Assembly (NCBI RefSeq): GCF_000092105.1
Contig: NC_014148.1
Span: 2,160,001 to 2,192,000, forward strand
DNA: 32,000 bases
Direction of reading: 5' to 3'
Source: Planctopirus limnophila DSM 3776
GTDB lineage: Bacteria > Planctomycetota > Planctomycetia > Planctomycetales > Planctomycetaceae
Below are positions 1 to 14,854 of the stretch, one piece after another. The first letter of the stretch is position 1. The number at the start of each line of letters is the position of its first letter. The position numbers and the translations under genes are program-made. Below the pieces are notes generated by a model. The model saw only the letters and a list, made by a program, of their open reading frames with translations, searched no databases and was not told the DNA's origin.

Positions 1-920
1 CCGCCCGGGCCGAGATTTCTCGCCGTATGGTCGATCAACTGCGATCCCAGTTTCCCGACGAAGAATCGCTCAAGCCGATGAATTTTGCAGCGGCGAATGC
101 CGCCATGCTGATTTCTCGCGTGCATGGTTTCGAAGGTCCATCGCTGGTCATCGATGCCGCTTGTGCCTCATCACTGATGGCATTGAGTCAGGCTTCCTAC
201 GCCTTGGCACGTGGCGAAATCGATATGGCCGTGGCCGGTGGGGCATCGTACAGCAAGTGGTTTGGCCTCGTTCTGTTTTCGATGGCGATGTCCATCAGTG
301 CAACCGGGTCAAGACCCTTTGATGCCGACGCCGATGGGCTCATCAGTTCAGACGGTTATGGGCTGGTTGTTCTCAAGACTCTCCCGAAAGCGCTCGCCGA
401 TGGTGATCGAATTCTGTCGGTCATCCGCGGGATTGGTGTCTCTTCTGATGGACGCGGTAAAAGCCTTTGGGCACCACGCCAGGAAGGACAGATTCTCGCT
501 GTCGAACGGGCTTACTCGAAGAACATCGACCCCGCGTCGCTGCAATACATCGAATGTCATGCCACATCAACTCAGGTCGGCGATGCCACTGAACTCAAGT
601 CCCTGGCTCAAGTGCTGACTGGCAAGATCCCGGCTGGTCGAAAAATACCGATTGGAAGCGTGAAGGCTAATATCGGCCATGCTCTCGAGGCCGCAGGGAT
701 TGCAGGGTTTATCAAAACCGTCCTCGCCATGGAACATGGCGTGATCCCCCCCCAGATCAATTTCAAGACGCCTAATCCTGAAATTGAATGGAAGAACGTA
801 CCTTTTGAAGTTGCTACTAACGCCAGAGAGTGGGATCGTCCCGCAGGAGGAATGCCGCGACGAGCTGCCGTGAACTCGTTTGGTATCGGTGGGCTCAATG
901 TCCACATGGTGCTCGATGAC
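1..920 (+). other. Ketosynthase (KS) domain, partial at the N-terminus, catalytically intact
   Basis: Cys46 in DAACASS (TGT 162-164), His178 in IECHATSTQ, His218 in KANIGHALEAAG, and the C-terminal NSFGIGGLNVHMVL motif. Confidence 0.9.
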
Positions 921-3900
921 GGGCTATTGCCGGGTGAAAAATCCAAGACCTCTGTGGCCGTACCATCGGCACAGCCAAACAGCAACGTGGCACCGGCTCC
1001 GGTTCAGCAGCCGATGGCCGTCATTGGCATGGCATCAATCCTTCCCGGTGCTTTGACAAAAGCCGCCCTGTGGGAAGCACTCATCGCCGGCAAAGATCCC
1101 AAGTGCGAGTTTCCCAAAGAAAACAGCACCTTGGCCTCTACACTCCTCGCCGAAGAGCAGAAGTCACAAAAGCCAGAACTGACATCGCGCGGTGGTTACG
1201 TCGCAGATTTCGTTTACGATTGGAAGCGGCATAAAGTTCCACCCAAACAGGTCGCGAATGCCAATCCACTACAGTTCATGCTGCTCGATGCGGCTGACCA
1301 GGCTCTGACAGATGCCGGTTACGAAAAGAAGCCTTTTGATCGCAATCGTTCAACAGTCATTGTCGGAACGATGTTTGGAGGTGACTTTGCTGTTCAACTC
1401 CAGTTGGGTCTGCGTTTGCCACATATCCAAAAGGTGCTGCGCGAACATCTGGAAGCGAATGGCACAAAACCAGATCAGATTGACGAAGCTCTGCTTCAAT
1501 ATGAAAAGCACTTCTTGAAAGTTTTGCCGGCATTACTGGATGAAACTGGCAGTTTCACCAGCAGTACCCTCGCTTCAAGACTTTCGAAAACCTTCGATTT
1601 CCGCGGTGGGGCGTTTGCCCTCGAAGCTGAAGAAGTTTCCGGGCTGGTGGCTGTCAACCTGGGGATCAACATGCTCGAAACCGGCACGACAGATCTCGTT
1701 CTGTGTGCTGCCGGCCATCAATCGATGAGTTACAACAGCTTCGAAAAACTCGTCGAGAAAGATCTTCTGAGCAAAGGCCAATCCCGCTCGGCCTTCGATG
1801 CCGATTTCGATGGCATTCTGCCTGCAGAAGGCGTGGCCGTTCTCGTCCTGAAACGGCTTGCAGATGCCGAACGTGACGGGGATACAATCCGTGCAGTCAT
1901 TCGCGGAACTGGCCAGTGCAACCGTCGTAATGATGAAGCCGGTGCCCTGCGCGAGTCGTTTAACACGGCTCTCAAAGTTGCCAACACGTCACCCAAAGCC
2001 ATTGGTGCGATTGAAGTCTCTGGTGTCGATTGCAAAGACCGCAATTTCAACCAGCTCGAACTGGCCAAAACCATCGATCAGGAAAGTGGCCAGCCACAAG
2101 CCTTGATTGGCTCGCTGACTCCACAAATCGGTTACCTGCGTGGTGCCTCGGGAGTGGCTTCGATTGTCAAATCGATTCTCGAGTTGCAGAACGGTCAAAT
2201 CGCCCCGCAATTTGGTCTCAAAAAGCTGGCTGCGGAAGTTCAGCCTGTCGCACATGCGATTCCTCAAAAGGTCATGCCGCTCTATGCGACTGCCCCAGGA
2301 GAGAAGGGGCAGATTGCCATCAGCAACAGCTCTCTCGATGGATCGGGTTTCAGCCTGATACTCGAAAGTGCCCAGAAACTCCCACTCCGCCCGGTAACCA
2401 CTCCTTCAGTCGCAATCAGCCAACCAGCCAGTGCAAAACAGGCCCCGGCGACTCTGTCTTCCAGGCAGATAACCTCTCAGTCACGGAGGTCTAAGCTGGC
2501 TCTCGCCTTTCCTGGGCAGGGGTCTTACTACGCAGGGATGGGCGCTGACCTGATTGCAAATTACACCGAAGTCCGGCAGAAACTGGCCGAGTTCAACGAA
2601 GTCCTCAAACTCGAAAACTGCCCCGATTTTGAAACGCTGTCCGCAGACCCAGGCAACAGCATTCTCAATGCTCAACTCTCGATGCTCGTCATCGATCTGC
2701 TCTACTACACCGCCTACAAGACGGCGGGAATTCAGCCAGATTATGTCTGCGGACACAGTTATGGCGAGTTTCCTGCATTGGTGGCTGCCGGAGCACTGAC
2801 CTTCCGCAGTGCGGTCATTGCCACACGCGATCGATCGCATGTCGTGGAAGAGTTTGCCGGCAAGCAGGGGACCTTACTCGCGGTCTCTTCGGATGCTTCC
2901 ACTTTGCGCCATCTGTTGACGAGAGCACCAGTCGAAGTCTTCATTGCCAATATGAATTCACCCGAACAAACCGTTCTGGGTGGAACAATTGATGATTTGA
3001 AGCAATTCGAAAAGATCCTGCGGGAACGCCGGATAGGTAGCCGACTTCTGAAAGTCCCGGCTGCCTATCACACACCACTGCTCGAGCCGGCGCTCGTCAC
3101 TTATCGTGACTGCATTCGAGCTTTGCCAATTTCTGTTCCACAGATTCCAGTCATCAGTGGCATCGGCAATCGAGAAGTCACCGATCCGGAAGAGATTCGC
3201 GAGAATCTCGTAATGCAACTGGTCAGCCCCATGGACTTTGTGGGGATGGTTCAACTTTTAAGACAGCTTTCTGTCGGGATGGTGGTCGAAGTGGGGCCGC
3301 GTAAGGTGCTCACGCAACTGATCCAGAAAACAGCCAACGAAGGTCAGTTGGAATGCCTCCCCATGGATCCTCGCGACAATTCGTCGTCAGACTGGCAATC
3401 CACGCTCAGAAGCAAATATGAAGGATCTGTCGGCAATGCCTCACCGGCTGCTGCAACGCCTCAGAAAACGCCAGCTTCCCCAGTACCAGCACAGGCTCAA
3501 AAGCCAGTTTCGCAGCCACAGAAGCCCGCAGTTCAGCCTGCTGCAGCGAACTCATCCGTTTCGAAACCTGGCCAGACGAAATCTTGCCAGATTAATCCCA
3601 CTCCCGCAACGACCAACGTACCAACCACAGGTTCAAAAGTGACAGACCGTCCCCGTATCGTTCACTTCGACGCGACCGCGAAACGAAAAGAAGAAAATCG
3701 TCTGCGGGCAATCCAGCAGCGTGCAGAATCCGGGCGGCCTGTGGTCACATCGGCCAGTCCGAAAACAACGCAAAACTCACCTGCCATTTCGCACAGCGAC
3801 CTCGCTGAGACAAATGGACATTCCGGGCACTTCGAGAAGAATGGACACGCTTCGGATGTCACGAGCAAAGCACCAGCTCTCAACTCCGCTCAGATGAAAG

Positions 3901-6900
3901 AAGAGATCGTCCCTCCAGTCGTTGTGATCGAAGAGGTTCCAGCGGCTCCACGCAAGTTGCCCAATCGTGCTGAACTCGAAGCGTTTGTTGTCGAGTACAT
4001 CGTCGATCAGACTGGCTACCCGCCGGAGATGGTCGAACTCGAAGCTGATCTCGAAGCTGATCTGGGCATCGACAGTATCAAGAAGGCCCAGATGCTCGGG
4101 GAGTGCGCCCAGAAGTTCGAACTTCACTGGCTCGCCAATGAAGTCGCCGATCTGTCACTTGATCAGTTCCCGAATCTCGCTTCGATCATCAAGTTCCTGA
4201 CTGAAGATGCCGCCAAGGCCACTGCATCACCTTCGGAAGAACAACTTGCTGAATCCGTACCTGCCGCTGCTCTGCCAGCCGTAGCTATCGTGACTGAAAC
4301 CAGCGAAGAGGTAGTTCCACGCAAGTTGCCTAATCGTGCGGAACTTGAAGCATTCGTTGTCGAATACATCGTCGATCAGACGGGTTATCCGCCGGAGATG
4401 GTTGAACTCGAAGCGGATCTCGAAGCCGACCTCGGTATCGACAGCATCAAGAAGGCCCAGATGCTCGGCGAGTGCGCTCAGAAGTTCGAACTCCACTGGC
4501 TCGCCAATGAAGTCGCCGACCTTTCACTCGATCAGTTCCCGAATCTGGCTTCGATCATCAAGTTCCTGACCGAAGATGCCGCTAAAGCGTCTTCGAGTGC
4601 GAATACGATTGATGCGGTCGCGATTTCCAAATCGGTCGACACTGATGCCCCGAGGGAACCAGCTCATCAATCCGCCGAGACGTTGCCTGCTGTCCCCGCG
4701 ACCACAGTGACCAGCGAAACAGTGACCAGCGAAGAGGTGGCTCCTCGCAAGTTGCCCAATCGTGCGGAACTCGAAGCGTTTGTTGTCGAGTACATCGTCG
4801 ATCAGACTGGCTACCCGCCGGAGATGGTTGAACTCGAAGCGGATCTCGAAGCTGATCTGGGCATCGACAGTATCAAGAAGGCCCAGATGCTCGGGGAGTG
4901 CGCCCAGAAGTTCGAACTTCACTGGCTCGCCAATGAAGTCGCCGATCTGTCACTCGATCAGTTCCCCAATCTCGCTTCGATCATCAAGTTCCTGACTGAA
5001 GATGCCGCCAAGGCCACTGCATCACCTGCGGAAGAACAGCCTGCTGAAGCCGTACCTGCCGCTGCTCTGCCAGCTATTGCCATCGTGACTGAAACCAGCG
5101 AAGAGGTAGTTCCACGCAAGTTGCCTAATCGTGCTGAACTCGAAGCGTTCGTTGTCGAATACATCGTCGATCAGACTGGCTACCCGCCGGAGATGGTTGA
5201 ACTCGAAGCGGATCTCGAAGCTGATCTGGGGATCGACAGCATCAAGAAAGCCCAGATGCTCGGTGAATGTGCCCAGAAGTTCGAACTCCACTGGCTCGCC
5301 AATGAAGTCGCAGATCTCTCGCTCGATCAGTTCCCGAATCTGGCTTCGATCATCAAGTTCCTGACCGAAGATGCCGCCAAGGCGTCTTCGACATCACGAT
5401 CAGCATCGCATGTCGCCTCACCGGAGACCGAACTGGAACTTCAGGATTCCAGTACTGCCACAGCCACACTGACTGAACCAGCAAGTGTTTCCACACAAGC
5501 TGTGACCCAGGTCGTCGAAGCCGTGCCTGCGGTTTCAATAGTGAGAGAATCTGTCATGATTCTTCAAGGCAGCCCTTACGAAATGGGCTTCCAGCATGGT
5601 CAGAAAGAGAAAGCCGCCATCCACGGCATTCTTGAACGTCAGATCACGCGCTATGGTGCCCGACTCGACAACATGCCCGAGTTAGACGAGGCTGTCAGTG
5701 ATCCCGCACGATACTTCGGAGAAGATGAAGTCGCCGAGCTTAAAGGGATTGCCGACGGTGCCGAACTCCCTCTCGCATTCCTGATTGGCCATAACCTGGG
5801 CCTCTGCGAAGACTACGTCCCGGGCTGTGCCCAGTTTGCTGTCTCTGCCCAGGCCAATGGTGGGAAGGGAATGATCCATGCCGCCAACGAAGATTCTTCG
5901 CTCGCACTCAGTTTGACGGATTGCCTCCGCCGTGTGGTGCAGTGCCGAATTCCTGCCCATGGTTATCGACACATCGTCTTCAGCGTGAGTGGACAGGTCA
6001 GCGGCATCAATGGTACCAACGAAAAGGGCCTGACTGTCACCAGCACTTTGCTGCTGGATCGAGCCCCTCGCGACATCACGGCACCTGGCGACATCCATCC
6101 CGTGCTCATCAAGAAAATCCTCGAAAAGGCCGCCACACCGGCTGAAGCCATCGAGATCCTCAAAAGCTCCAAGCGAAATGGTGCCTGGGGAGTCTGCATC
6201 AGCCATGCCGATACCGATTCACTCTGCTATGTCGAATACGACAGTGATCAACTGGAAGTTCGCAGTGGGATGACTCGCGTCATTGGCACGAACCACTCGT
6301 TGCTGCTCGGCGCCACACATCCGACACCTCCACACTCCATGCACCGTATGGATCGCCTGCAAGAACTGCTGGCCAAGGAAGAAGCTATGGGGCTCGACTT
6401 CCCGGCTGCTGAAAAAACTCTTCGCGATCAGTTCGATGGTGGGCGTCAGCGAGTCACTGCTCATGCGACCATGAACACGATCTGCCGTGTCGATAACCAG
6501 ATCAGTGTGGTCTTTGGCCCAAGCGAGAAGACAATTCGTGTAACTCCCGGTTCATATCGCAAAGAATTTGCACATGAATTCTCCACGCTTGATGTCGATG
6601 GCTTCTTCGGTGGTGCTGATGAATTAGTCGTCAACGATGTCCCGACAAACTCAAACACGGGCTCCAGCGTCGGTTCGACATCAAAATTAATACCAGCACA
6701 GCAGACCGATCTCCCTCGATTAGCTGGTTTACCAGTTATCGATGAGCGTGTAATGCATCGGGTCATCCTGCGTCCGCGTTTGTCACCGCTCTCGCATGCA
6801 GCACAAAAGGTAAGTCTCACTGGTAAAACAGTTGTCTATGGTTTCGGTGAAGTTGCCAGGGCCTTGATCTCCAAGTTGAAGTCCACAGGCCTCGAAGTTG

Positions 6901-9900
6901 CTGTGATACCTACCTGTTTTGATGTGACAAAGCTGGAAGCTGAGTTCGAAAATCTGGCAGCGCTCAAATCTGCCAGGAATCTGATTCTGGTGGGGCCACG
7001 ATCCTCAGATGAAGTCAGTGAAGCGAGTGCTTCTGCACGATTCCTGACAGCCTTCCGTCTTTGCCAGTTATGGACTCAAAGCGGTCAGGAAATCTGCCCG
7101 CTGGCCGAGAGATCGTTAACCTTTGTCTCCTTCATGGGAGGAAATTTCGGTCTCGAAGGGAGCCCAGCCAATGCCGATGGTGGTGCCATGTCTGGCCTTG
7201 CCAAGGCCCTTCGCCGCGAACTGGCACCTCTGGTTGTCCGCACTGTCGATTTTGCCAGTGACGATGTAACAGACAGGGTCGTGGATCAGCTTGCCAATGA
7301 ACTCTCACAATCTTTTGAAATATGCGAAGTTGCCTATTCGCGTGGTGAGCGTTTTGTTGTGGCAGCCCGCCCTGTGCCGGCGACTCCGGTACCACAAAAT
7401 GGGCCAACACCTGGATCGGCATGGATCATTTCCGGTGGTGCCCGAGGCGTCACTGCGGTCGTCGCCAGAGAACTTGGAGTTCGTTATGGAGTCCACCTTC
7501 ATCTGATTGGTTCTTCACCAATCCCTGAACTGGATCCATCACTTCTGGAGGCTTCAGCCGAAGAGTTGAAAGCCTTGCGTCGGAAAATCATGTCCGAGGC
7601 GCGTGAACGTGGCGAAGTTCCTCTCGATGCCTGGAGCACATTCGAACGCAGCCTCGAAGCCCGTCGCAACCTGCGTGACATGCGGCAAGCAGGTGTTTCA
7701 GTCACTTATCATTGCTGCGATATCAGTCAACCCGATGCCGTTGAAAAAACGGTTGCAGCCATCCGTACCTTCAATCATCCGATTGAAGGGGTCATTCACG
7801 GAGCCGGGGTGGAACATGCCTGTCGATTTGAACGCAAGCAGTTACCCAAGGTCCAAAAGACCTTCGATGTCAAAGTCGAAGGCGCACGTCACCTGGCTGC
7901 AGCACTCGAACATGATCCCGTGGCGTACTTTGTGGGATTCGGTTCCACCAGTGGTCGCTTCGGTGGTTTAGGTCAGGCCGATTACTCGGCAGCTTCCGAT
8001 GCACTCGCCAAGTTCTGTAATGAACTGGGCCGCAAGAATCCCGACTGGCGGACCATTGTGGTTCACTGGCCACCCTGGGGCGAAGTGGGCATGGCAGCCC
8101 GCCCTGAAAGTAAACTCGCTCTCGAAGCCGGCGGAATGGCGTTTATGCCACCACAAGAAGGCGTCGCCTTCCTGCTGGAAGAATTGGCTTCAACGTCACC
8201 AGAACCAGAAATCCTGATTGTCGATAAGCCAGATGGCCTCGATCTCGATCGTACGCTTCCTGAACTGGCAGCATGGAAAGATTTCGCAGCCGCCCAGCAA
8301 GTGGTCGATGCCTCGCCTCTGCTGGATACCGTGATCGCCCTGACTCCTGGGGAGTATGTCGAAGTCGAAGTTCGATTGAACCCGGCACAAGATCCCTTCC
8401 TGTACGATCATCAACATCGCAATGCCCCCATTCTCCCAATGACATTCGGTCTGGAGACATTGGCTCAGGCATTCAGAGTTCTGCTACCCGCAACCGAGCA
8501 GGTGACTGTGCTCGATGGGGAAATTGTCAATCCCATGCGGTTCTTTGCGGATCGTCAAGAACTCGCCATCGCTCGCATCCGTCGCTCGGGAGACAGCTTC
8601 GAAGGGGAACTCGTCACCAGGTTCTTCAATCGCAAGGGCGTCTTGCTCAAGCACGAACGGGTGCTCGTCAAAGCCCGGCTCAAACCCGGTGTCGATGCAC
8701 CGGACGCAGCCAAACCTTTCAAATCATCCATGCAGCTCAAGAAAGTTCAGTACGCAGAAACGTGGGATCAAGTCGCTGCATTGAATCTGGGGAGTGTCTT
8801 CACGGGCCCCTCCATTCGAGGATTGACGGAGTTCGCTTACGAAGGGAAGACCTTCGAAGGGATCATCGTTCCACCACCGATCAGTGGATTTGCCGGAAAT
8901 CGCCCGGCAACCGGCTGGATGTTGAATCCTGCTGTGCTTGATGCCTGCCTCATTGGGTGTGATCGCTGGGCAGCACAGGCCGTCGAGCGGCAAAGCCTTC
9001 CCGTGAACATCGAAAAGGTCAGCCTGTATCGACCCGCCATCGATGGTGATCTCTGCCGGATTGATGGTCAGGTGCTCGAAGTCACTGAGAAAAATCTGCG
9101 ATTCAACTTCTCTCTCTGGAACTCGAAAAACGAAATCATTCTGCGGGTCGAAGGATTCTGCACTACGGCAGTAATGGGCGGTTCACAACCGGAAACATCA
9201 GCAGAAATTCCTGCCGGGATCGCTTCCAGAGCCATCCCGGAATTGAAATCCCTCAACCCTGCCGATCTGCACTTGCTGTTCCCCGTCGAAGCCGTCACAG
9301 CCAGTGCTGATCATTGGGAAGCCGAAGTGCGGATCGAGCCTTTGACAGAGCCATTAATGACGGCTCACCGGTTTAACAACTCGCCACTCCTCCCCGGAGC
9401 AGCGATGGTCGAGTTGTTTGCCGAAGCTTTGCAGCAGGTTCTTCCGGGCCCTGGTGTGGCTCGAATTCGCAACTTCTCCATTCAGCATTCGCTGCACCTG
9501 AAGGCTGCTCTCCCGCGTCGTGTGCAGGTCGTGGCACATAAAGAAGCTGATGGCTATCGCTGCCAGCTAATTGATCTCGATGGTGGTTCGATCACTCTGG
9601 CAACGGCTCTGATTGACCGAGTGGATGCAGCCAACCTGCAATTGCCACAACTCGATCAGCCCAAGGGCAGCTATAGCCCCATGAAGTATCCCGATATGGG
9701 GCCTCTGATTCATGGCGCACCACTGCGCAGCCTGCAGGCGATGTGTTCCGGGCGTGATGATGCGTGGGCCGAAATCGTTCCGACAGATATGAGCAAATTG
9801 CTTGGGCCGAATTCGAAATGTCAGCCGGTCATTCACCCGGCTGTCCTCGATGGCAGCTTCTACGCCTGTGGAATTCACGCCTGGATCAACTGCTTCGGAA

Positions 9901-10109
9901 GAGTCGAGTTACCACTTGGTTTTGAGGAACTGCTGATTCTCCGTGATCAGCCATTAAGCAAAACCGACAAACTGGTCACTCGTGTCCGATACCGCGACAG
10001 TGACGACAAAGGTTCTTCATATGAAATCTCCGTTTTCGACAAACAGAAACAACCAGTCTATGTTGTCAGGAACTATCGCAGTGTTGCTAAAGGCAGCGTG
10101 ACATTGTGA
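1..10109 (+). CDS. Giant iterative type I PKS / PUFA-synthase-like secondary-lipid megasynthase, 5'-truncated by the window edge. Domains: KS, KS0 (CLF-like), AT, 4x ACP, C45/IAT-like acyltransferase, KR, DH, DH.
   Basis: Uninterrupted 3360-aa ORF from 27. The frame stays open back to nt 3 (ARAEISRR upstream of the first Met), and only about 55 aa precede the KS active-site Cys, so the N-terminus lies outside the window. Motifs seen: DAACASS / ECHATST / NIGHALEAAG (KS), GHSYGE (AT, 2751-2768), four LGIDSIKK phosphopantetheine sites, SGGARGVT Rossmann plus ADYSAAS (KR), and two HxxxNxxxxP plus LDxxx hot-dog DH motifs. Confidence 0.95.
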   Translation, partial: ARAEISRRMVDQLRSQFPDEESLKPMNFAAANAAMLISRVHGFEGPSLVIDAACASSLMALSQASYALARGEIDMAVAGGASYSKWFGLVLFSMAMSISATGSRPFDADADGLISSDGYGLVVLKTLPKALADGDRILSVIRGIGVSSDGRGKSLWAPRQEGQILAVERAYSKNIDPASLQYIECHATSTQVGDATELKSLAQVLTGKIPAGRKIPIGSVKANIGHALEAAGIAGFIKTVLAMEHGVIPPQINFKTPNPEIEWKNVPFEVATNAREWDRPAGGMPRRAAVNSFGIGGLNVHMVLDDGLLPGEKSKTSVAVPSAQPNSNVAPAPVQQPMAVIGMASILPGALTKAALWEALIAGKDPKCEFPKENSTLASTLLAEEQKSQKPELTSRGGYVADFVYDWKRHKVPPKQVANANPLQFMLLDAADQALTDAGYEKKPFDRNRSTVIVGTMFGGDFAVQLQLGLRLPHIQKVLREHLEANGTKPDQIDEALLQYEKHFLKVLPALLDETGSFTSSTLASRLSKTFDFRGGAFALEAEEVSGLVAVNLGINMLETGTTDLVLCAAGHQSMSYNSFEKLVEKDLLSKGQSRSAFDADFDGILPAEGVAVLVLKRLADAERDGDTIRAVIRGTGQCNRRNDEAGALRESFNTALKVANTSPKAIGAIEVSGVDCKDRNFNQLELAKTIDQESGQPQALIGSLTPQIGYLRGASGVASIVKSILELQNGQIAPQFGLKKLAAEVQPVAHAIPQKVMPLYATAPGEKGQIAISNSSLDGSGFSLILESAQKLPLRPVTTPSVAISQPASAKQAPATLSSRQITSQSRRSKLALAFPGQGSYYAGMGADLIANYTEVRQKLAEFNEVLKLENCPDFETLSADPGNSILNAQLSMLVIDLLYYTAYKTAGIQPDYVCGHSYGEFPALVAAGALTFRSAVIATRDRSHVVEEFAGKQGTLLAVSSDASTLRHLLTRAPVEVFIANMNSPEQTVLGGTIDDLKQFEKILRERRIGSRLLKVPAAYHTPLLEPALVTYRDCIRALPISVPQIPVISGIGNREVTDPEEIRENLVMQLVSPMDFVGMVQLLRQLSVGMVVEVGPRKVLTQLIQKTANEGQLECLPMDPRDNSSSDWQSTLRSKYEGSVGNASPAAATPQKTPASPVPAQAQKPVSQPQKPAVQPAAANSSVSKPGQTKSCQINPTPATTNVPTTGSKVTDRPRIVHFDATAKRKEENRLRAIQQRAESGRPVVTSASPKTTQNSPAISHSDLAETNGHSGHFEKNGHASDVTSKAPALNSAQMKEEIVPPVVVIEEVPAAPRKLPNRAELEAFVVEYIVDQTGYPPEMVELEADLEADLGIDSIKKAQMLGECAQKFELHWLANEVADLSLDQFPNLASIIKFLTEDAAKATASPSEEQLAESVPAAALPAVAIVTETSEEVVPRKLPNRAELEAFVVEYIVDQTGYPPEMVELEADLEADLGIDSIKKAQMLGECAQKFELHWLANEVADLSLDQFPNLASIIKFLTEDAAKASSSANTIDAVAISKSVDTDAPREPAHQSAETLPAVPATTVTSETVTSEEVAPRKLPNRAELEAFVVEYIVDQTGYPPEMVELEADLEADLGIDSIKKAQMLGECAQKFELHWLANEVADLSLDQFPNLASIIKFLTEDAAKATASPAEEQPAEAVPAAALPAIAIVTETSEEVVPRKLPNRAELEAFVVEYIVDQTGYPPEMVELEADLEADLGIDSIKKAQMLGECAQKFELHWLANEVADLSLDQFPNLASIIKFLTEDAAKASSTSRSASHVASPETELELQDSSTATATLTEPASVSTQAVTQVVEAVPAVSIVRESVMILQGSPYEMGFQHGQKEKAAIHGILERQITRYGARLDNMPELDEAVSDPARYFGEDEVAELKGIADGAELPLAFLIGHNLGLCEDYVPGCAQFAVSAQANGGKGMIHAANEDSSLALSLTDCLRRVVQCRIPAHGYRHIVFSVSGQVSGINGTNEKGLTVTSTLLLDRAPRDITAPGDIHPVLIKKILEKAATPAEAIEILKSSKRNGAWGVCISHADTDSLCYVEYDSDQLEVRSGMTRVIGTNHSLLLGATHPTPPHSMHRMDRLQELLAKEEAMGLDFPAAEKTLRDQFDGGRQRVTAHATMNTICRVDNQISVVFGPSEKTIRVTPGSYRKEFAHEFSTLDVDGFFGGADELVVNDVPTNSNTGSSVGSTSKLIPAQQTDLPRLAGLPVIDERVMHRVILRPRLSPLSHAAQKVSLTGKTVVYGFGEVARALISKLKSTGLEVAVIPTCFDVTKLEAEFENLAALKSARNLILVGPRSSDEVSEASASARFLTAFRLCQLWTQSGQEICPLAERSLTFVSFMGGNFGLEGSPANADGGAMSGLAKALRRELAPLVVRTVDFASDDVTDRVVDQLANELSQSFEICEVAYSRGERFVVAARPVPATPVPQNGPTPGSAWIISGGARGVTAVVARELGVRYGVHLHLIGSSPIPELDPSLLEASAEELKALRRKIMSEARERGEVPLDAWSTFERSLEARRNLRDMRQAGVSVTYHCCDISQPDAVEKTVAAIRTFNHPIEGVIHGAGVEHACRFERKQLPKVQKTFDVKVEGARHLAAALEHDPVAYFVGFGSTSGRFGGLGQADYSAASDALAKFCNELGRKNPDWRTIVVHWPPWGEVGMAARPESKLALEAGGMAFMPPQEGVAFLLEELASTSPEPEILIVDKPDGLDLDRTLPELAAWKDFAAAQQVVDASPLLDTVIALTPGEYVEVEVRLNPAQDPFLYDHQHRNAPILPMTFGLETLAQAFRVLLPATEQVTVLDGEIVNPMRFFADRQELAIARIRRSGDSFEGELVTRFFNRKGVLLKHERVLVKARLKPGVDAPDAAKPFKSSMQLKKVQYAETWDQVAALNLGSVFTGPSIRGLTEFAYEGKTFEGIIVPPPISGFAGNRPATGWMLNPAVLDACLIGCDRWAAQAVERQSLPVNIEKVSLYRPAIDGDLCRIDGQVLEVTEKNLRFNFSLWNSKNEIILRVEGFCTTAVMGGSQPETSAEIPAGIASRAIPELKSLNPADLHLLFPVEAVTASADHWEAEVRIEPLTEPLMTAHRFNNSPLLPGAAMVELFAEALQQVLPGPGVARIRNFSIQHSLHLKAALPRRVQVVAHKEADGYRCQLIDLDGGSITLATALIDRVDAANLQLPQLDQPKGSYSPMKYPDMGPLIHGAPLRSLQAMCSGRDDAWAEIVPTDMSKLLGPNSKCQPVIHPAVLDGSFYACGIHAWINCFGRVELPLGFEELLILRDQPLSKTDKLVTRVRYRDSDDKGSSYEISVFDKQKQPVYVVRNYRSVAKGSVTL
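1008..2372 (+). other. Degenerate KS / chain-length-factor-like domain (KS0)
   Basis: KS-fold similarity over aa ~328-782. In a hand alignment to the upstream KS the catalytic triad is replaced: Cys->Glu536 (ALEAEEVSG, 1632-1634), His->Ser665 (IEVSG), His->Tyr703 (QIGYLRGASG). Confidence 0.8.
2490..3371 (+). other. Acyltransferase (malonyl-CoA:ACP transacylase-like) domain
   Basis: FPGQGSYY N-terminal motif, GHSYGE active-site serine motif at 2751-2768, and the downstream AAYHTPLL motif. Confidence 0.85.
3951..5384 (+). repeat. Tandem array of four ACP-encoding repeat units (3951-4220, 4320-4589, 4746-5015, 5115-5384)
   Basis: A 90-codon core (RKLPNRAELEAFVVEYIVDQTGYPPEMVELEADLEADLGIDSIKKAQMLGECAQKFELHWLANEVADLSLDQFPNLASIIKFLTEDAAKA) occurs four times in frame. 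Unit offsets are 369, 426 and 369 nt. Linkers 1 and 3 resemble each other, as do the tails after units 2 and 4 (795-nt super-repeat). Ppant serines are at 4074, 4443, 4869 and 5238. Confidence 0.95.
5553..6581 (+). other. Peptidase C45 / acyl-CoA:6-aminopenicillanic-acid acyltransferase (IAT)-like Ntn-hydrolase-fold domain embedded in the PKS
   Basis: Hand alignment to Penicillium IAT (PenDE) over aa ~1843-2185. ILQGSPYEMGFQHG matches ILCQGTPFEIGYEHG, ELKGIADGAELP matches EIRGIAKGAERD, VPGCAQFAV matches RDGCTTAY (the Gly-Cys processing site), and IGTNHSL matches VHTNHCL. Confidence 0.8.
6759..8201 (+). other. Ketoreductase region (structural pseudo-KR subdomain plus catalytic KR)
   Basis: NADPH-binding motif AWIISGGARGVTAVVARELG. 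SDR-like catalytic region GFGSTSGRFGGLGQADYSAASDAL. A Rossmann-like structural half lacking the cofactor motif lies upstream. Confidence 0.8.
8319..9176 (+). other. PKS-type (double hot-dog) dehydratase domain 1
   Basis: LYDHQHRNAPILP matches the HxxxGxxxxP motif with Asn at the Gly position (His codon 8409-8411). The second-half PAVLDACL motif is present. Confidence 0.7.
9279..10106 (+). other. PKS-type (double hot-dog) dehydratase domain 2
   Basis: TAHRFNNSPLLP matches HxxxGxxxxP, again with Asn (His codon 9366-9368). The second-half PAVLDGSFYA motif is present. Confidence 0.7.
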
Positions 10110-10915
10110 TCAGTAACGACGGAATGAGTGACTGCGGGGTCAGGGAGGGTATGACTTCTCAATTCGAGATTCATACCGCCACCAGGGCACAACTACGAAC
10201 CGAACTGCACTCAAGCAGTCTCGGAGAAAAGTTTGCCATCGGTGCGGAAATGTTCCTCGACCCTGCCCGCAAAGAATCGTGGGAACTGAGCCGATTTTTG
10301 ATCGCGAGTCGAGTTTTTACGCTGCTGAAAACTGATCGCTCTCAGGATTTCTTGTCTCCCGAGTTATCAGAGATCGAAGTATGGACTCGCAATGATCAGG
10401 GCAGGGGGATTCCACCAGCAGTTTTCATCGACAACCAACCCATCCCCTGGACATTTTCGCTCTCACATGCAGGAGACAATTACGCACTCGCCATTTGCAG
10501 GCAGCCGCAGTTACGACCCGGAGTGGATCTGGTCAACACCAGCACTTTCACTCAGGCAGCCTTACAAATGTGGTTCACGCCGGAGGAAAGAACATATCTC
10601 GCAACGCAGGATGAGCGGGCCGCAGGAACCATCTGGGCACTCAAGGAAGCGGTCTACAAAGCCACAAATTGCGGGGAACCATTTCGACCAAGGCAGATAG
10701 AAATTCTTCCAGAAGGCAAAAAGTTGATTTGCCGTGTGAGGGGGATTCATGTGCACCTTGATGAGGCAATCATCCGCTTCATCGAAAAAGATTGTCTGCT
10801 CGCAGCCGTCTTAATCAAGCAGAACTCTTTCCCGAACACTGATAAAAACCACTTCGATAACAAAACCAATTCTCACTCAATCAATGACACATCTCACGAT
10901 CTGATCATGCATTGA
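10106..10915 (+). CDS. 4'-phosphopantetheinyl transferase (Sfp-type)
   Basis: PPTase motifs PGVDLV and IWALKEAVYKA. The GTG start overlaps the PKS stop (GTGA at 10106-10109). Alternative ATG starts are at 10124 and 10151; the latter is preceded by GGAGG. Confidence 0.85.
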   Translation: MISNDGMSDCGVREGMTSQFEIHTATRAQLRTELHSSSLGEKFAIGAEMFLDPARKESWELSRFLIASRVFTLLKTDRSQDFLSPELSEIEVWTRNDQGRGIPPAVFIDNQPIPWTFSLSHAGDNYALAICRQPQLRPGVDLVNTSTFTQAALQMWFTPEERTYLATQDERAAGTIWALKEAVYKATNCGEPFRPRQIEILPEGKKLICRVRGIHVHLDEAIIRFIEKDCLLAAVLIKQNSFPNTDKNHFDNKTNSHSINDTSHDLIMH

Positions 10916-10975
10916 TGTTAAGACCTGAAAACGCGAATTCTCACTCCCGGAATTACAGAGTCAAAGGCCACTCGA

Positions 10976-11740
10976 ATGATTGATTTAACCAATAAGATCG
11001 CCCTCGTCTCCGGGGCCTCACGCGGCATTGGTCGCGCGACAGCATTGCAACTTGCCCGCGCCGGGGCTGACGTGGTCATCAATTATGTACAATCTCGCGA
11101 CAGTGCTGACCGAGTGGCAGAAGAGATCGCCGCCATGGGCCGCCGCGTGGCCATTGTCCGTGCGGATGTCAGCGAGCAGAGCGATGTTCAGAGCATGATG
11201 GAATTTGTGGGCAATGAATTTGGCAGGCTCGACATTCTCGTCAGTAATGCTGCATCGGGGGGATTCCGCCCCTTGCTGGCGGCCACTCCCAAGAATTTCG
11301 AAGCCGCGATGAATACCAATGTCCGCGCACTTCTATTCCTCGTACAGGCCGCACATCCTTTGTTGGGGCAAAGTGTCGATCGAGCCAAGATTGTGGCCAT
11401 TTCGAGCCATGGCTCACACATGGCACTCCCATGGTATGGCCTGATTGGTACCTCCAAAGCAGCACTGGAAAGCCTGATTCGCCACATGGCACTTGAGTTT
11501 GGCGACCAGGGAATGAACTTCAACGTCGTCCAGGCGGGACTGGTTCCCACAGACTCCACCAAGATGATTCCTGGCTCCGAAGTCATGTTCAATGCGCGAA
11601 GCTCCAAGACCATGATGGGTGATCGCCAACTGGAACCCGAAGACGTTGCGAACGCAGTCCTTTACCTTTGCAGTCCACTGAGCGATCTGGTGCAAGGGCA
11701 AGTCTTGATCATCGACGGCGGGGCCGCCATTCACGTCTAA
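10976..11740 (+). CDS. fabL: SDR-family enoyl-[ACP] reductase, FabL-like
   Basis: 254-aa classical SDR with VSGASRGIGRA cofactor motif, the NAASGGFRP motif typical of FabL (B. subtilis NNAASGVLRP), and ISSHGS...Y..IGTSKAALESL catalytic Tyr/Lys. It aligns end to end with B. subtilis FabL as I recall that sequence. Confidence 0.7.
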   Translation: MIDLTNKIALVSGASRGIGRATALQLARAGADVVINYVQSRDSADRVAEEIAAMGRRVAIVRADVSEQSDVQSMMEFVGNEFGRLDILVSNAASGGFRPLLAATPKNFEAAMNTNVRALLFLVQAAHPLLGQSVDRAKIVAISSHGSHMALPWYGLIGTSKAALESLIRHMALEFGDQGMNFNVVQAGLVPTDSTKMIPGSEVMFNARSSKTMMGDRQLEPEDVANAVLYLCSPLSDLVQGQVLIIDGGAAIHV

Positions 11741-11832: not shown

Positions 11833-13512
11833 ATGCTCAATCTGATCTTCTCCATGATCGGCAGTTTCCTGGCACGGAAAGTCGGCCAGCAGCGAATGGC
11901 GTTTCATCAAGCCACAATGCGCCCCCGCGAATCGCAACAGGCCTTCTTAAAAGAATTACTTGCTGCCCATGCGGATTCGGCGTTTGGCAAGGATCATTTT
12001 TTTCGAGAAATTCAAACTGCGGCTGATTTCCAGAAGAGATTGCCAATCGCTGAGTACGAGAACTTTGCCCCCTACATCGAGCGCGTCAAAGCGGGTGAAA
12101 CCACCGCGATGTTCTGCAACGAACAGATTGTCATGTTCAATCTCACCAGTGGTACGAGCAGCACTCGAAAATTTATTCCCGTCACCAATCGCTACCTCAG
12201 TGATTACCGACGCGGCTGGTCGATGTGGGGCTTACAGACTTTCGAAAAGTACCCGCAGCTTTTCCTGCAGCCAAAAGTCAGCTTTGGCAGTGCCTCGAAG
12301 GAATCGGTCACGTCAGCGGGCATTCCGTGTGGCAGTTTGAGTGGCCTGACTGTCAAAATGAATCCTGCTGTCGTACGCAGCACCTATTGCCTCCCTGCTG
12401 ATACGGCTGACCATGCCGACGCTTTCGCCAGATGTTACCTCAACTGGCGAATCGGCATCCAAAGAAACCTTGGCATGGGTGTCGCCCCGAATCCGGGTTT
12501 GCTTCTCCAGTTCGCTCGCTATGGAACCGAGAACGCCGAATGTCTCATTCGCGAACTTCATGACGGCACTCATTCCTGTACGGCTGCCTTGCCGCGGCAT
12601 CTCCAGAATTGGCTCAAACGCCAGATCCGCCCAAATCGCAAACGTGCTCGCGAACTGGAGCAGATCTTTACTCGCCAGATGACTCTCCACCCGAAAGATG
12701 TCTGGCCTCAGCTCAAACTGATTGCCTGTTGGCTGGGTGGGCCAACCAGAGCTTATATCTCACAGATTCCCGAGTATTTCGGAGATGTCACATTGCGGGA
12801 TATTGGCCTGATCTCCAGTGAAAGCCGCATCAGCCTTCCCAAAGAAGACAACACACCTGCGGGTATTCTCGATGTGACCAGTGCCTATTTTGAGTTCGTA
12901 CCTGTCGACGAAATGGATTCCAGCAATCCCGTTGTGCTCGATGCTGCCGAACTCGAAACCGGCAAAGAGTATTACATCCTTTTGACAACGACCAGTGGGC
13001 TCTATCGATACAACATTCATGATGTGGTACGAGTCGTTGACTGGCACGAAAAAACACCCATGATCGAATTTCTGCATAAAGGAAGCAGAATTGCCAATCT
13101 CTTCGGTGAAAAACTCACGGAGAGCCAGATTGTCAAAGCGGTCACAACGTTCGTTCAATCAACAGCCACGCCTCTGGGCGATTTTTCACTGACTATGCCT
13201 CTGCCACATGAGCCGATGGCCTATCGGTTTTACGCCGAAATGCGAGATGCATTCTCTTCCGATTCGATCGCCACTCTGGCTCGGCAACTGGACGAATCTC
13301 TGGGTGAGCAGAACTATCTGTACCGCCGTAAAAGAGTCGAAGGCCTGCTCCATCCCCTGGAATTGATCGTCATTCCACAAGGTGCCTGGCGCGCCTGGGA
13401 TCTCCGCCAACTCGCCCGCAATGGCGGCACCATGGATCAGTACAAGCATCCTTTTCTGATCACCAATCGCAGCCTGATTGACGATCTTCAGGTTGAGCCT
13501 GTCAGTTCTTAA
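11833..13512 (+). CDS. GH3 family acyl-acid amido synthetase (GH3 auxin-responsive promoter family, ANL-like adenylating enzyme)
   Basis: 559 aa. GH3 motifs NLTSGTSSTRKFIP (12145-12180), GLYRYNIHDVVRV and NLFGEKLTESQ. The length is typical of bacterial GH3 proteins. Confidence 0.85.
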   Translation: MLNLIFSMIGSFLARKVGQQRMAFHQATMRPRESQQAFLKELLAAHADSAFGKDHFFREIQTAADFQKRLPIAEYENFAPYIERVKAGETTAMFCNEQIVMFNLTSGTSSTRKFIPVTNRYLSDYRRGWSMWGLQTFEKYPQLFLQPKVSFGSASKESVTSAGIPCGSLSGLTVKMNPAVVRSTYCLPADTADHADAFARCYLNWRIGIQRNLGMGVAPNPGLLLQFARYGTENAECLIRELHDGTHSCTAALPRHLQNWLKRQIRPNRKRARELEQIFTRQMTLHPKDVWPQLKLIACWLGGPTRAYISQIPEYFGDVTLRDIGLISSESRISLPKEDNTPAGILDVTSAYFEFVPVDEMDSSNPVVLDAAELETGKEYYILLTTTSGLYRYNIHDVVRVVDWHEKTPMIEFLHKGSRIANLFGEKLTESQIVKAVTTFVQSTATPLGDFSLTMPLPHEPMAYRFYAEMRDAFSSDSIATLARQLDESLGEQNYLYRRKRVEGLLHPLELIVIPQGAWRAWDLRQLARNGGTMDQYKHPFLITNRSLIDDLQVEPVSS

Positions 13513-14727: not shown

Positions 14728-14854
14728 TCTTTGCCGCAAAACACTCGATTTTTACCGTTTCCTTGGCGTGGCATCGCTGTTTATCGTCTCGTATAACGAT
14801 GACACTCGAATGACACCAAATGTTCTGATCCTGTTATCTCCATGAGGTTCTTCC

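What the first reader, a model, noticed from the sequence alone, without database searches (positions are those of the whole stretch)
1..11740. Non-canonical one-polypeptide PUFA-synthase-like assembly line lacking FabA-type DH, PfaD-type ER and TE
**Seen.** Domain order is KS, KS0, AT, 4x ACP, C45, KR, DH, DH on one ORF, followed by a PPTase and an SDR enoyl reductase.

**Established.**
- Canonical Pfa systems split these functions over PfaA (KS-AT-ACPn-KR-DH), PfaB (AT), PfaC (KS-CLF-2x FabA-like DH) and PfaD (FMN enoyl reductase).
- The FabA-like DH/isomerases are what install cis double bonds.
- Pfa-like secondary-lipid clusters with unknown products are known to be widespread, including in Planctomycetes.

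**Inference.** Here KS-CLF is fused in front of a PfaA-like module, and both DHs are PKS-type hot-dogs rather than FabA-type. The product is therefore probably not a classical omega-3 PUFA. It is more likely a saturated, monounsaturated or hydroxylated long-chain lipid or polyene.

**Caveat.** The 5' end and anything upstream lie outside the window.
Basis: partly seen in the sequence, partly recalled or inferred. Interest (0 to 1): 0.7.

Follow-up and report, generated by a model that had tools for sequence, protein, structure and literature searches.

The report
PUFA-like lipid synthase with embedded C45
This is a giant, uncharacterised lipid-building enzyme of the freshwater bacterium Planctopirus limnophila that resembles the synthases for omega-3 fatty acids. 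It lacks their double-bond machinery and instead carries an internal, probably self-cleaving acyl-transfer domain, with an amide-forming GH3 ligase gene two genes downstream of the synthase, so it probably makes a new fatty-acyl amino-acid lipid.

Summary
**Observation confirmed.**
- The window holds the last 3368 of 3527 residues of P. limnophila ADG67503.1, annotated only as 'type I polyketide synthase'.
- The domain order is KS, Cys-less KS (CLF), AT, 4 ACP, C45, KR, DH, DH. A PPTase and a FabL-like enoyl reductase with the Tyr-x6-Lys motif follow.
- Only the N-terminal half of the KS is missing. In two Planctopirus relatives (97-99% identical KS) the upstream genes are PutA and an AraC regulator, not pfaB/C/D.
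- No FabA-type DH, PfaD-type ER or thioesterase was detected.

- The C45 domain is the hallmark of a large uncharacterised family: 109 clusters at 50% identity, almost always ordered KS-CLF-AT-(ACP)-C45-KR-DH.
- It models confidently as a Cys-Ntn fold (isopenicillin-N acyltransferase, TM 0.79; acid ceramidase and NAAA next). Its Gly-Cys aligns with the autoproteolytic Gly102-Cys103.
- A GH3 ligase follows the ER in five separate lineages, and all of them keep the Cys. A sister clade linked to fatty-acyl reductases has Cys replaced by Gly.

**Best model (inferred).** An iterative reducing synthase builds the chain, C45 releases it, and GH3 ligates it to an amino acid.

**Verdict.** New variant of a known kind; product unknown.

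The parts
3..932 (+). KS domain, C-terminal two thirds (the first 159 aa of the protein lie outside the window). Active-site Cys in DAACASS (153-173); His motifs ECHATS and KANIGH.
   Evidence: Pfam Ketoacyl-synt_C and KAsynt_C_assoc; motifs; exact match to P0003 residues 160-3527.
1008..2372 (+). Chain-length-factor-like KS0 domain. ALEAEEVSG (1617-1643) replaces the Cys motif.
   Evidence: Second ketoacyl-synt match at residues 336-622; motif; KS-CLF collinear with PfaC KS-CLF structure 6riw, 257 bits.
2508..3341 (+). Acyltransferase domain (GHSYGE at 2751-2768). FabD-like, so presumably malonyl-specific.
   Evidence: PF00698 101.7 bits; TIGR00128 fabD 170.9 bits, below its cut-off.
3951..5384 (+). 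Four tandem ACP domains (3951-4220, 4320-4589, 4746-5015, 5115-5384), each with LGIDSI. The 90-aa cores are identical in protein sequence while the DNA copies are 84-98% identical.
   Evidence: PF00550, 4 stretches; direct repeats; identity matrix.
5565..6554 (+). C45 (isopenicillin-N acyltransferase-like, Cys-Ntn) domain. The predicted nucleophile and autoproteolysis site Gly-Cys is at 5823-5828 (Cys = residue 2101 of the full protein).
   Evidence: PF03417 and NF040521 above their cut-offs. A 95-sequence alignment puts G-C on IAT G102-C103, conserved 93% and 86%. AF2 model pLDDT 90.7; Foldseek 2x1c TM 0.79, then acid ceramidase and NAAA.
6690..8081 (+). Ketoreductase: presumed structural subdomain from about 6690 (assigned only because this stretch is conserved with the KR across the family), catalytic part 7422-8081. 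GGARGVT nucleotide motif; Tyr in ADYSAAS.
   Evidence: PF08659 104 bits; motifs; the region is conserved across the family.
8370..9227 (+). First PKS-type double-hot-dog dehydratase (His in HQHRNAPILP, 8409-8438).
   Evidence: PF21089/PF14765, two stretches; weak PDB matches to CurK/CurF DH only; motif.
9255..10109 (+). Second PKS-type dehydratase (His in HRFNNSPLLP, 9366-9395), followed by the stop codon.
   Evidence: PF21089 at residues 3099-3186; motif. Many family members have only one DH.
10106..10915 (+). Sfp-type phosphopantetheinyl transferase. Its start overlaps the PKS stop (GTGA).
   Evidence: PF01648 49.6 bits; sequence of the overlap; a PPTase sits next to or near the PKS in many, but not all, relatives.
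10976..11740 (+). FabL-like SDR enoyl-ACP reductase acting in trans (Tyr-x6-Lys, YGLIGTSK).
   Evidence: NF005975 264 bits (cut-off 328); PDB 3oic FabL 177 bits against 131 for the next hit; motif; 59-82% identical in full-length matches and adjacent to the PKS across the family.
11833..13512 (+). GH3-family acyl-acid amido synthetase. The adenylating motifs TSGTSSTRK, SSE and YRYNIHD are present.
   Evidence: Pfam GH3 N/M/C at 258, 85 and 79 bits; OlsH model only 117 bits against 620; PKS-(PPT)-ER-GH3 order conserved in L089, L093, L094 and L096.
13711..15421 (+). DHDPS-family aldolase-like gene (13711-14727) and DJ-1/PfpI gene (14855-15421). They lie on the same strand, but their membership of the cluster is doubtful.
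   Evidence: Pfam. They are conserved only within Planctopirus; other GH3-linked loci have GtrA, MMPL, an O-methyltransferase or a Rieske oxygenase at this position.

Best explanation
The locus encodes an iterative, reducing, PUFA-synthase-like type I synthase of Planctopirus limnophila.

**Shown by sequence**
- KS-CLF extends and sizes a chain from malonyl units loaded by the single AT onto four identical ACPs.
- A KR, two PKS-type DHs and a dedicated FabL-type ER acting in trans provide a full reductive cycle.
- No FabA-type dehydratase/isomerase is present.

**Inferred**
- The chain is therefore a long saturated acyl chain, or one that is partly hydroxylated or trans-unsaturated, and not a methylene-interrupted cis-polyene.
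- The C45 domain between the ACPs and the KR self-cleaves at Gly2100/Cys2101. This splits the protein into KS-CLF-AT-ACP4-C45alpha and C45beta-KR-DH-DH, which stay associated.
- The new N-terminal Cys takes the finished acyl chain from the ACP thioester and releases it, most simply as the free acid.
- The GH3 enzyme encoded after the PPTase and ER genes then adenylates that acid and ligates it to an amino acid or amine. The result is an N-acyl amino-acid (lipoamino-acid) lipid.
For: **Anatomy and motifs:**

**KS-CLF:** collinear with PfaC 6riw.

**DHs:** PKS-type only.

**ER**
- FabL is the best hit in both NCBIfam and the PDB, and the Tyr-x6-Lys motif is present.
- Full-length matches are 59-82% identical next to this kind of PKS across Planctomycetota.

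**C45**
- It scores above the curated cut-offs.
- A search of 1.84 billion representative proteins gave 562 hits, 109 of them at E<=1e-30. Most are long proteins with the order KS-CLF-AT-(ACP)-C45-KR-DH.
- Gly-Cys aligns to IAT G102-C103. IAT positions N119, D121, N246, H247, S265, R268 and R271 are conserved in at least 92% of members.
- The AF2 model has pLDDT 90.7. Its top structural hits are all self-cleaving Cys-Ntn enzymes that act on acyl amides or thioesters: IAT (TM 0.79), acid ceramidase and NAAA.

**GH3**
- PKS-(PPT)-ER-GH3 recurs in four lineages beyond Planctopirus whose GH3 is only 42-64% identical.
- All six GH3-linked C45 sequences keep the Cys. Seven loci of a sister clade carry Gly instead, and six of those have a fatty-acyl reductase gene in view. 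This fits C45 being the release catalyst where GH3 is present.
- The only characterised bacterial GH3, OlsH, uses free fatty acid plus ATP to N-acylate ornithine and needs neither ACP nor CoA (PMC12493201). That matches a hydrolytic release step upstream.
- In Polystyrenella longa a stand-alone C45 gene lies about 5 kb from a GH3 gene, separated by argB-argD-argF.
Against: - No product, self-cleavage or enzyme activity has been measured.
- The GH3 is only a distant relative of OlsH (117 bits against a 620 cut-off) and has no OlsI partner in the window. Its acid and amine substrates are unknown.
- Three or four loci linked to fatty-acyl reductases keep the C45 Cys (L087, L090, L091; also L029, where no reductase is visible in the short contig). 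C45 and the reductase are therefore not simple alternatives.
- C45 could equally transfer the chain straight to an amine, or load a starter acyl-CoA.
- The ER is 100% identical among Planctopirus species while its neighbours are 84-98% identical. It may therefore also be the housekeeping FAS-II reductase rather than a dedicated partner.
- A pfaD homologue exists elsewhere in the genome.
- Chain length and the degree of reduction cannot be read from the sequence.
Confidence: 0.45

Rival explanations
1. C45 is not a hydrolytic release domain. It may be an acyltransferase that passes the finished chain from ACP directly to an amine acceptor, as IAT does from acyl-CoA to 6-APA. Alternatively it may be a starter-unit loader that brings an acyl-CoA onto the synthase. 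GH3 would then act on another carboxylate, for example to prepare or extend the head group.
For: - IAT, the closest solved structure, is a thioester-to-amine acyltransferase.
- Acid ceramidase and NAAA act on fatty-acyl amides.
- C45 with an intact Cys also occurs in loci that have a fatty-acyl reductase for release (L087, L090, L091).
- O-methyltransferase and Rieske oxygenase genes follow GH3 in L089 and L096. This hints at a modified, possibly aromatic, head group.
Against: - The domain sits after the ACPs in mid-protein, not at the N-terminus where loading domains usually lie.
- OlsH-type GH3 enzymes use free fatty acids (PMC12493201), and hydrolytic release would supply exactly that.
- The clade with a dead C45 (Cys to Gly) carries a reductase. 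That fits loss of a release function better than loss of a loading function.
Confidence: 0.25
2. The synthase makes a long-chain fatty alcohol, polyol or glycolipid of the heterocyst-glycolipid kind, as its relatives linked to reductases and glycosyltransferases probably do. The GH3 adjacency would be incidental.
For: - KS-CLF-AT fusion and absence of FabA-type DH are traits of the Hgl 'Type F' cluster (PMC3098273).
- Many relatives have a Male-sterility/NAD_binding_4 reductase next to the PKS.
- L090 adds a glycosyltransferase and four Rieske oxygenases.
Against: - No reductase of that kind and no glycosyltransferase was found among the main ORFs scanned in the window, and no reductase homologue appears in any Planctopirus locus.
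- The ER-GH3 adjacency recurs in five lineages, which is hard to call incidental.
Confidence: 0.1
3. It is a functional PUFA or olefin-precursor synthase. It would borrow a PfaD-type ER from the separate Type J locus and a FabA/FabZ-type isomerase from elsewhere in the genome.
For: - Tandem ACPs, the KS-CLF pair and the strongest NCBIfam match to PfaA (761 bits) resemble Pfa systems.
- P. limnophila carries a pfaD homologue elsewhere (PMC3098273).
Against: - The PfaA score is below the family cut-off (1010).
- There is no FabA-type domain in the protein or its neighbours.
- A dedicated SDR enoyl reductase is conserved next to the gene.
- The family-specific C45 and GH3 partners have no counterpart in Pfa systems.
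Confidence: 0.05

Closest known systems
Bacterial PUFA synthase PfaABCDE (Shewanella/Moritella type)
   Same: - Iterative type I system with tandem identical ACPs.
- A KS-CLF didomain collinear with PfaC (6riw).
- AT-ACPn-KR-DH order as in PfaA.
- A PPTase gene next to the synthase.
   Different: - All domains are on one ORF, with KS-CLF in front.
- There is no PfaB.
- There are no FabA-type dehydratase/isomerase domains.
- The ER is an SDR of FabL type instead of the FMN enzyme PfaD.
- A C45 domain is inserted between the ACPs and the KR.
- The PfaA model score is below its cut-off (761 against 1010).
Heterocyst glycolipid synthase (Hgl, 'Type F' of Shulse & Allen 2011)
   Same: - KS-CLF-AT fusion (HglC).
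- No FabA-type DH.
- The product is a long, mostly reduced chain.
- Relatives of this PKS carry thioester-reductase-type and glycosyltransferase genes.
   Different: - This window has no reductase or glycosyltransferase.
- It has a C45 domain, a FabL-type ER and a GH3 ligase, none of which belongs to Hgl clusters.
Acyl-CoA:isopenicillin N acyltransferase (IAT, MEROPS C45), with acid ceramidase and NAAA
   Same: - Same fold (TM 0.79, and 0.71-0.75 for the ceramidase and NAAA).
- Gly-Cys at the autoproteolytic and nucleophile position.
- Conserved Asn/Asp/His/Ser/Arg positions.
- These enzymes handle acyl thioesters or amides.
   Different: - Here the fold is a domain inside a 3527-aa megasynthase, not a free enzyme.
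- Sequence identity is about 18%.
- The donor would be acyl-ACP.
- Self-cleavage would cut a PKS in two, for which I found no precedent in the literature searched.
OlsH, the GH3-like lyso-ornithine-lipid synthetase of Singulisphaera acidiphila (PMC12493201)
   Same: - Planctomycete GH3-family protein with all three Pfam GH3 domains and the adenylating motifs.
[quoted passage not shown]
   Different: - It scores only 117 bits against the 620 cut-off of the OlsH model.
- No OlsI O-acyltransferase or OlsG methyltransferase lies beside it.
- It is coupled to a dedicated PKS and ER rather than to the general fatty-acid pool.
Shulse & Allen 'Type J' locus of P. limnophilus
   Same: - Same genome.
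- Also a pfa-like secondary-lipid locus with an unknown product.
   Different: - Type J is a two-gene locus, pfaD [ER] plus pfaA [KS-MAT-ACP3-KR].
- The window locus has KS-CLF, four ACPs, C45 and two DHs, has PutA upstream, and was not classified in that survey.

Membership tests
Canonical Pfa PUFA synthase | PfaA-type subunit recognised by TIGR02813 above its curated cut-off | tested here: not met
   760.8 bits against a cut-off of 1010.1, matched in 5 separate stretches.
Canonical Pfa PUFA synthase | Tandem ACP domains | tested here: met
   Four PP-binding domains with identical 90-aa cores.
Canonical Pfa PUFA synthase | KS-CLF didomain as in PfaC | tested here: met
   A single collinear match of query 30-729 to 6riw (ORF10; that this is Moritella PfaC is from my own knowledge), 257 bits. 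The Cys motif is replaced in the second KS.
Canonical Pfa PUFA synthase | Two FabA-type dehydratase/isomerase domains | tested here: not met
   No PF07977 hit at E<=0.01. The DHs match PS-DH/PKS_DH_N and CurK/CurF only.
Canonical Pfa PUFA synthase | PfaD-type FMN enoyl reductase and PfaB acyltransferase in the cluster | tested here: not met
   Neither was reported among the ORFs scanned in the window or in the 9.5 kb upstream in P. hydrillae. A pfaD homologue exists at another locus (PMC3098273).
Heterocyst-glycolipid-type synthase (Type F) | KS-CLF-AT fusion and no FabA-type DH | tested here: met
   Domain order.
Heterocyst-glycolipid-type synthase (Type F) | Thioester reductase and glycosyltransferase partners | tested here: not met
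   None among the ORFs scanned in the window. No reductase homologue appears in any Planctopirus locus. Both are present only in more distant relatives.
MEROPS C45 / IAT-like Cys-Ntn enzymes | Family HMMs above their curated cut-offs | tested here: met
   PF03417 50.3 bits against 23.2; NF040521 134.1 bits against 85.
MEROPS C45 / IAT-like Cys-Ntn enzymes | Gly-Cys at the autoproteolytic and nucleophile position, and the alpha-beta-beta-alpha fold | tested here: met
   Aligned to IAT G102-C103. AF2 pLDDT 90.7; Foldseek 2x1c TM 0.79, E 9e-19. The Cys lies just before strand 95-98.
MEROPS C45 / IAT-like Cys-Ntn enzymes | Autoproteolytic maturation to an N-terminal Cys | not testable with these tools
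   Needs protein mass spectrometry or a Western blot of the native or recombinant protein.
OlsH (GH3-like lyso-ornithine lipid synthetase) | Equivalog HMM NF052613 above its cut-off | tested here: not met
   116.7 bits against 620. The Pfam GH3 N, M and C domains are all present.
OlsH (GH3-like lyso-ornithine lipid synthetase) | OlsI alpha/beta-hydrolase O-acyltransferase in the same operon | tested here: not met
   No alpha/beta-hydrolase was found among the ORFs scanned in the window. The operon criterion is from PMC12493201.
FabL enoyl-ACP reductase | Equivalog HMM NF005975 above its cut-off | tested here: not met
   263.9 bits against 328. It is still the best model by 80 bits.
FabL enoyl-ACP reductase | Tyr-x6-Lys catalytic spacing of FabI/FabL-type reductases, as opposed to Tyr-x3-Lys of ketoreductase SDRs | tested here: met
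   YGLIGTSK at residues 154-161 and no Y-x3-K motif. The best PDB match is FabL 3oic. The meaning of the spacing is from my own knowledge.

The most novel reading that the evidence does not exclude
A Cys-Ntn C45 domain embedded in mid-chain makes this the first megasynthase that cuts itself in two after translation. It would then use the new N-terminal cysteine as its chain-release or transfer catalyst, in place of a thioesterase. The released acid would feed a dedicated GH3 ligase that builds a previously unknown class of planctomycete lipoamino acids. The same solution would be shared by more than a hundred sequence clusters in environmental Planctomycetota.
Probability: 0.3. Interest if true: 0.8.

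Novelty: new variant of a known kind. Interest (0 to 1): 0.62.

Why it matters
- PUFA-synthase-like 'secondary lipid' clusters are common, but most have no known product.
- This family is widespread in Planctomycetota: 146 confirmed matches to the KS query among the GTDB species genomes, and 109 C45 clusters at E<=1e-30.
- It replaces three hallmark Pfa parts with different solutions. The FabA-type DH is absent, an SDR stands in for the PfaD ER, and a C45 domain stands where a release enzyme would be expected.
- If C45 is the release catalyst, it adds a new off-loading mechanism to polyketide and fatty-acid enzymology, and possibly the first self-splitting megasynthase.
- The link to GH3 connects a dedicated chain-building machine to the bacterial GH3 amide ligases, first characterised in 2025. 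That makes a new lipid class directly testable, because P. limnophila can be manipulated genetically.

Tried and rejected
**Searches that led nowhere**
- The search for homologous proteins with the whole 3368-aa protein timed out.
- With the C45 domain it returned only two fragments. With the DH-DH region it returned nothing. The word index evidently misses these long proteins, so I used the exhaustive representative search instead.
- The metagenome scan with the GH3 protein found only a 97%-identical Planctopirus contig already held from another look-up.
- Tandem Repeats Finder did not report the ACP repeats. The repeat finder did.
- The promoter and terminator scan gave counts equal to the shuffled expectation, so it says nothing about operon ends.

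**Ideas rejected**
- That the locus is Shulse & Allen's Type J: the architecture is different.
- That it is the stieleriacine (N-acyl tyrosine) pathway: that pathway uses NasY, with no PKS or GH3 (PMC12479983).
- That C45 and fatty-acyl reductase are strict alternatives: L087, L090 and L091 have both, with the Cys intact.
- That the minus-strand aminotransferase belongs to the cluster: it passes the valine-pyruvate transaminase equivalog.

**Literature**
- Searches for a C45/IAT-like domain inside a PKS found nothing relevant. The library holds only open-access papers.

Full report
**Source and extent**

The window comes from Planctopirus limnophila.
- The SDR gene at 10976-11740 occurs with an identical product in P. 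ephydatiae CP036299.1, in a run-assembly contig that is 100% identical to the window over every segment compared, and in further Planctopirus contigs.
- The large ORF is open from base 3 to the stop at 10107-10109.
- Its 3368 residues are exactly residues 160-3527 of ADG67503.1 / WP_013109934.1. Public sources name this protein only 'type I polyketide synthase', or give automatic names such as 6-deoxyerythronolide-B synthase.
- The missing 159 residues are the N-terminal half of the KS. In the P. hydrillae orthologue (97% identical over the KS query) the KS Pfam match begins at residue 6.

**Check of the observation**

- KS: active-site motifs present.
- Second KS-like domain: ALEAEEVSG replaces the Cys motif.
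- AT: GHSYGE.
- Four PP-binding domains.
- C45/AAT domain: PF03417 scores 50.3 bits against 23.2; NF040521 scores 134 against 85.
- KR.
- Two PKS-type DH domains, each with HxxxNxxxxP.

The four ACPs are direct repeats at 3944, 4313, 4739 and 5108.

Two genes follow the PKS within the finding.
- A PPTase (PF01648) starts at a GTG that overlaps the PKS stop.
- An SDR follows it.
  - Its best family model is FabL (264 bits, below the 328 cut-off, but 80 bits above the next model).
  - Its best solved relative is B. subtilis FabL 3oic (177 bits against 131).
  - It carries Tyr-x6-Lys and no Tyr-x3-Lys. From my own knowledge, that spacing marks FabI/FabL-type enoyl reductases rather than ketoreductases.

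Absences:
- No FabA or thioesterase family, and no enoyl-reductase match other than the SDR-type FabL-like protein, was reported for any ORF scanned.
- The DH region matches only CurK/CurF-type PKS dehydratases in the PDB.

- The 9.5 kb upstream of the orthologue in P. hydrillae encodes a ThuA/isochorismatase-like protein, an LpoB-like protein, a hypothetical protein, an AraC/PAS regulator on the other strand and a bifunctional PutA. A 510-bp gap then precedes the PKS.
- A MAG whose KS region is 99% identical shows the same ORF layout.
- Nothing upstream supplies pfaB, pfaC or pfaD functions.
- Shulse & Allen (PMC3098273) list P. limnophilus only for their Type J, a pfaD gene followed by a pfaA homologue with KS-MAT-ACP3-KR. 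That is another locus, and the window locus is not among their twenty types.
- One caveat follows: a pfaD homologue does exist elsewhere in this genome.

**Relation to Pfa systems**

- The KS-CLF pair aligns in one collinear stretch (query 30-729) with 6riw. From my own knowledge this is the KS-CLF didomain of Moritella PfaC.
- The PfaA model TIGR02813 is the best NCBIfam hit but stays under its cut-off (761 against 1010).
- The protein is therefore built from Pfa-like parts but is not a member of the canonical family. It fails on the FabA-type DH pair, PfaD and PfaB.

**The family**

A scan of one genome per GTDB species with the KS region confirmed 146 matching stretches.
- The best 80 are at least 51% identical.
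- Nearly all come from Planctomycetota; a few MAGs carry other labels.

Mapping the window's domains onto these loci gave four results.
- KS-CLF-AT-ACPn-KR-DH(-DH) occurs on one ORF of about 2500-3700 residues.
- A PPTase is adjacent or nearby in many of them, but it is not universal.
- The FabL-like ER is 59-82% identical in full-length matches.
- That makes the ER the best-conserved partner.

**The C45 domain**

An exhaustive HMMER search with the C45 domain against 1.84 billion representative proteins gave 562 hits, 109 of them at E<=1e-30. Most are long proteins. In nearly all long hits the order is KS-CLF-AT-(ACP)-C45-KR-(KR)-DH. The embedded C45 is therefore the hallmark of a large subfamily and not an oddity of one gene.

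I aligned 95 of these domains with the IAT sequence recovered from the PDB alignment.
- The family's Gly-Cys falls on IAT Gly102-Cys103, the autoproteolytic site and nucleophile. Conservation is 93% for Gly and 86% for Cys.
- IAT positions N119, D121, N246, H247, S265, R268 and R271 are conserved in at least 92% of members.

An AlphaFold2 model of the window's domain was built from a 19-sequence alignment.
- It has mean pLDDT 90.7 and pTM 0.91. The Cys lies just before a core strand, and the loop before it has low confidence.
- Foldseek against the PDB puts the IAT precursor first (TM 0.79, E 9e-19).
- Uncleaved acid ceramidase and the NAAA precursor come next (TM 0.71-0.75).
- All of these are self-cleaving Cys-Ntn enzymes that act on acyl thioesters or fatty-acyl amides.

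In window coordinates the Cys codon is 5826-5828, which is residue 2101 of the full protein.

**The GH3 partner**

The gene after the ER (11833-13512) has all three Pfam GH3 domains. The sequence shows the adenylating motifs directly (TSGTSSTRK, SSE, YRYNIHD).
- The only characterised bacterial GH3 enzyme is OlsH of the planctomycete Singulisphaera. It N-acylates ornithine with free fatty acid and ATP and needs neither ACP nor CoA (PMC12493201).
- The window's protein is not an OlsH equivalog (117 bits against 620), and no OlsI partner is present.

Genomic contexts of GH3 and PKS relatives show the same core order in four further lineages.

| Locus | GH3 identity | Gene order |
|---|---|---|
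| L093 | 64% | PKS, PPT, ER, GH3, GtrA |
| L094 | 55% | PKS, PPT, ER, GH3, MMPL, GtrA |
| L089 | 43% | PKS, ER, GH3, O-methyltransferase, Rieske oxygenase |
| L096 | 42% | PKS, ER, GH3, O-methyltransferase, Rieske oxygenase |

- Every one of these PKSs has a C45 domain.
- In Polystyrenella longa a stand-alone C45 gene lies about 5 kb from a GH3 gene, with argB-argD-argF between them and no PKS.

**State of the catalytic Cys across the family**

- All six GH3-linked C45 sequences keep Pro/Gly-Gly-Cys.
- Seven loci of a sister clade have Gly at the Cys position: L019, L025, L026, L027, L028, L041 and L043. Six of them show a fatty-acyl reductase (NAD_binding_4) gene near the PKS. L041's captured region shows none.
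- The pattern fits C45 being the release catalyst where GH3 is present and being replaced by reductive release in that clade.
- The pattern is not clean. L087 (Bremerella), L090 and L091 have both a reductase and an intact Cys.
- Most C45-less relatives with enough flanking sequence carry the reductase.

**Model**

Shown by sequence: a complete set of KS-CLF, AT, ACP, KR and DH domains, a trans ER, and no isomerising DH.

Inferred:
- Iterative synthesis yields a long, largely reduced chain.
- C45 self-cleaves at Gly2100/Cys2101, giving two associated chains.
- The new N-terminal Cys takes the acyl chain from ACP and releases it.
- GH3 adenylates the free acid and ligates it to an amino acid.
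- The MMPL and GtrA genes in relatives suggest export or envelope localisation.

The main rivals are listed in the rival explanations: C45 as a direct aminoacyl-transferase or starter loader, an Hgl-like alcohol or glycolipid product, and a true PUFA synthase helped in trans.

**Cluster limits**

- The DHDPS-family and DJ-1/PfpI genes after GH3 are conserved only within Planctopirus.
- The minus-strand aminotransferase passes a valine-pyruvate transaminase equivalog.
- I therefore take PKS-PPT-ER-GH3 (3-13512) as the core.
- The promoter and terminator scan was uninformative.

**Novelty**

- I found no paper that describes a C45/IAT-like domain inside a PKS or names a product for this family. 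The library holds only open-access papers.
- The stieleriacine pathway of planctomycetes uses NasY and is unrelated.
- The gene is present and generically annotated in public genomes, so the sequence itself is not new.
- The architecture and its likely mechanism are a new variant of the PUFA-synthase-like / iterative PKS kind.

Noticed in passing
window 3944-5407: The four ACP repeats encode 100% identical 90-residue cores, yet their DNA is only 84-98% identical. Every difference is therefore synonymous. Copies 1 and 3 pair at 98%, which suggests a duplicated doublet.
   Followed up: partly
window 10976-11740; L001, L003, L004, L005, L006: The FabL-like reductase is 100% identical in protein sequence across Planctopirus contigs, while the neighbouring PPTase is 82-87% and the PKS domains 92-100% identical. 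This unusually strong constraint may mean that it also serves as the housekeeping FAS-II enoyl reductase.
   Followed up: no
L019, L025, L026, L027, L028, L041, L043 (C45 region): A clade of related synthases has Gly in place of the C45 nucleophile Cys (AGG instead of PGC). Its ACP matches lie upstream of the KS, and a fatty-acyl reductase gene is nearby in six of the seven loci. It looks like a degenerate C45 with reductive release.
   Followed up: partly
L095 3393-11674 (Polystyrenella longa CP036281.1): A stand-alone C45 proenzyme gene (NF040521, 135 bits) lies about 5 kb from a GH3 gene, with argB, argD and argF in between and no PKS. This hints that this GH3 clade may use ornithine or a related amino acid.
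   Followed up: partly
L089 23375-25783; L096 11684-14041; L090 21028-25793; L091 20042-23607: O-methyltransferase (Methyltransf_2) and Rieske Ring_hydroxyl_A oxygenase genes recur next to C45-type synthases, up to four Rieske genes in a row. Their substrate in a lipid pathway is unexplained.
   Followed up: no
L087 2751-29043 (Bremerella volcania): A larger cluster version with this gene order: fatty-acyl reductase, KS-CLF-ACP protein, PPTase, ER, a 3558-aa KS-CLF-KS-CLF-AT-C45-KR-DH protein, three hypothetical proteins, a weak Condensation-domain protein, an MMPL transporter and HGLS.
   Followed up: no
window 3342-3950: A linker of about 200 residues, rich in Pro, Ala and Gln and of low complexity, lies between the AT and the first ACP.
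   Followed up: no
window 25801-27519 (-): An ORF passes the formylmethanofuran dehydrogenase subunit A equivalog (TIGR03121, 670 bits against 393). It is unrelated to the finding.
   Followed up: no
window 17222-18403 (+); L093 14640-16127 (-): A sigma-54-dependent activator (AAA+ and HTH_8 domains; no receiver-domain match was reported) lies a few kb downstream of the GH3 gene both here and in a relative whose GH3 is 64% identical. It might regulate the cluster.
   Followed up: no
window 27569-30079 (-): A hybrid histidine kinase with two PAS domains, HisKA, HATPase and a receiver domain. No link to the finding is evident.
   Followed up: no
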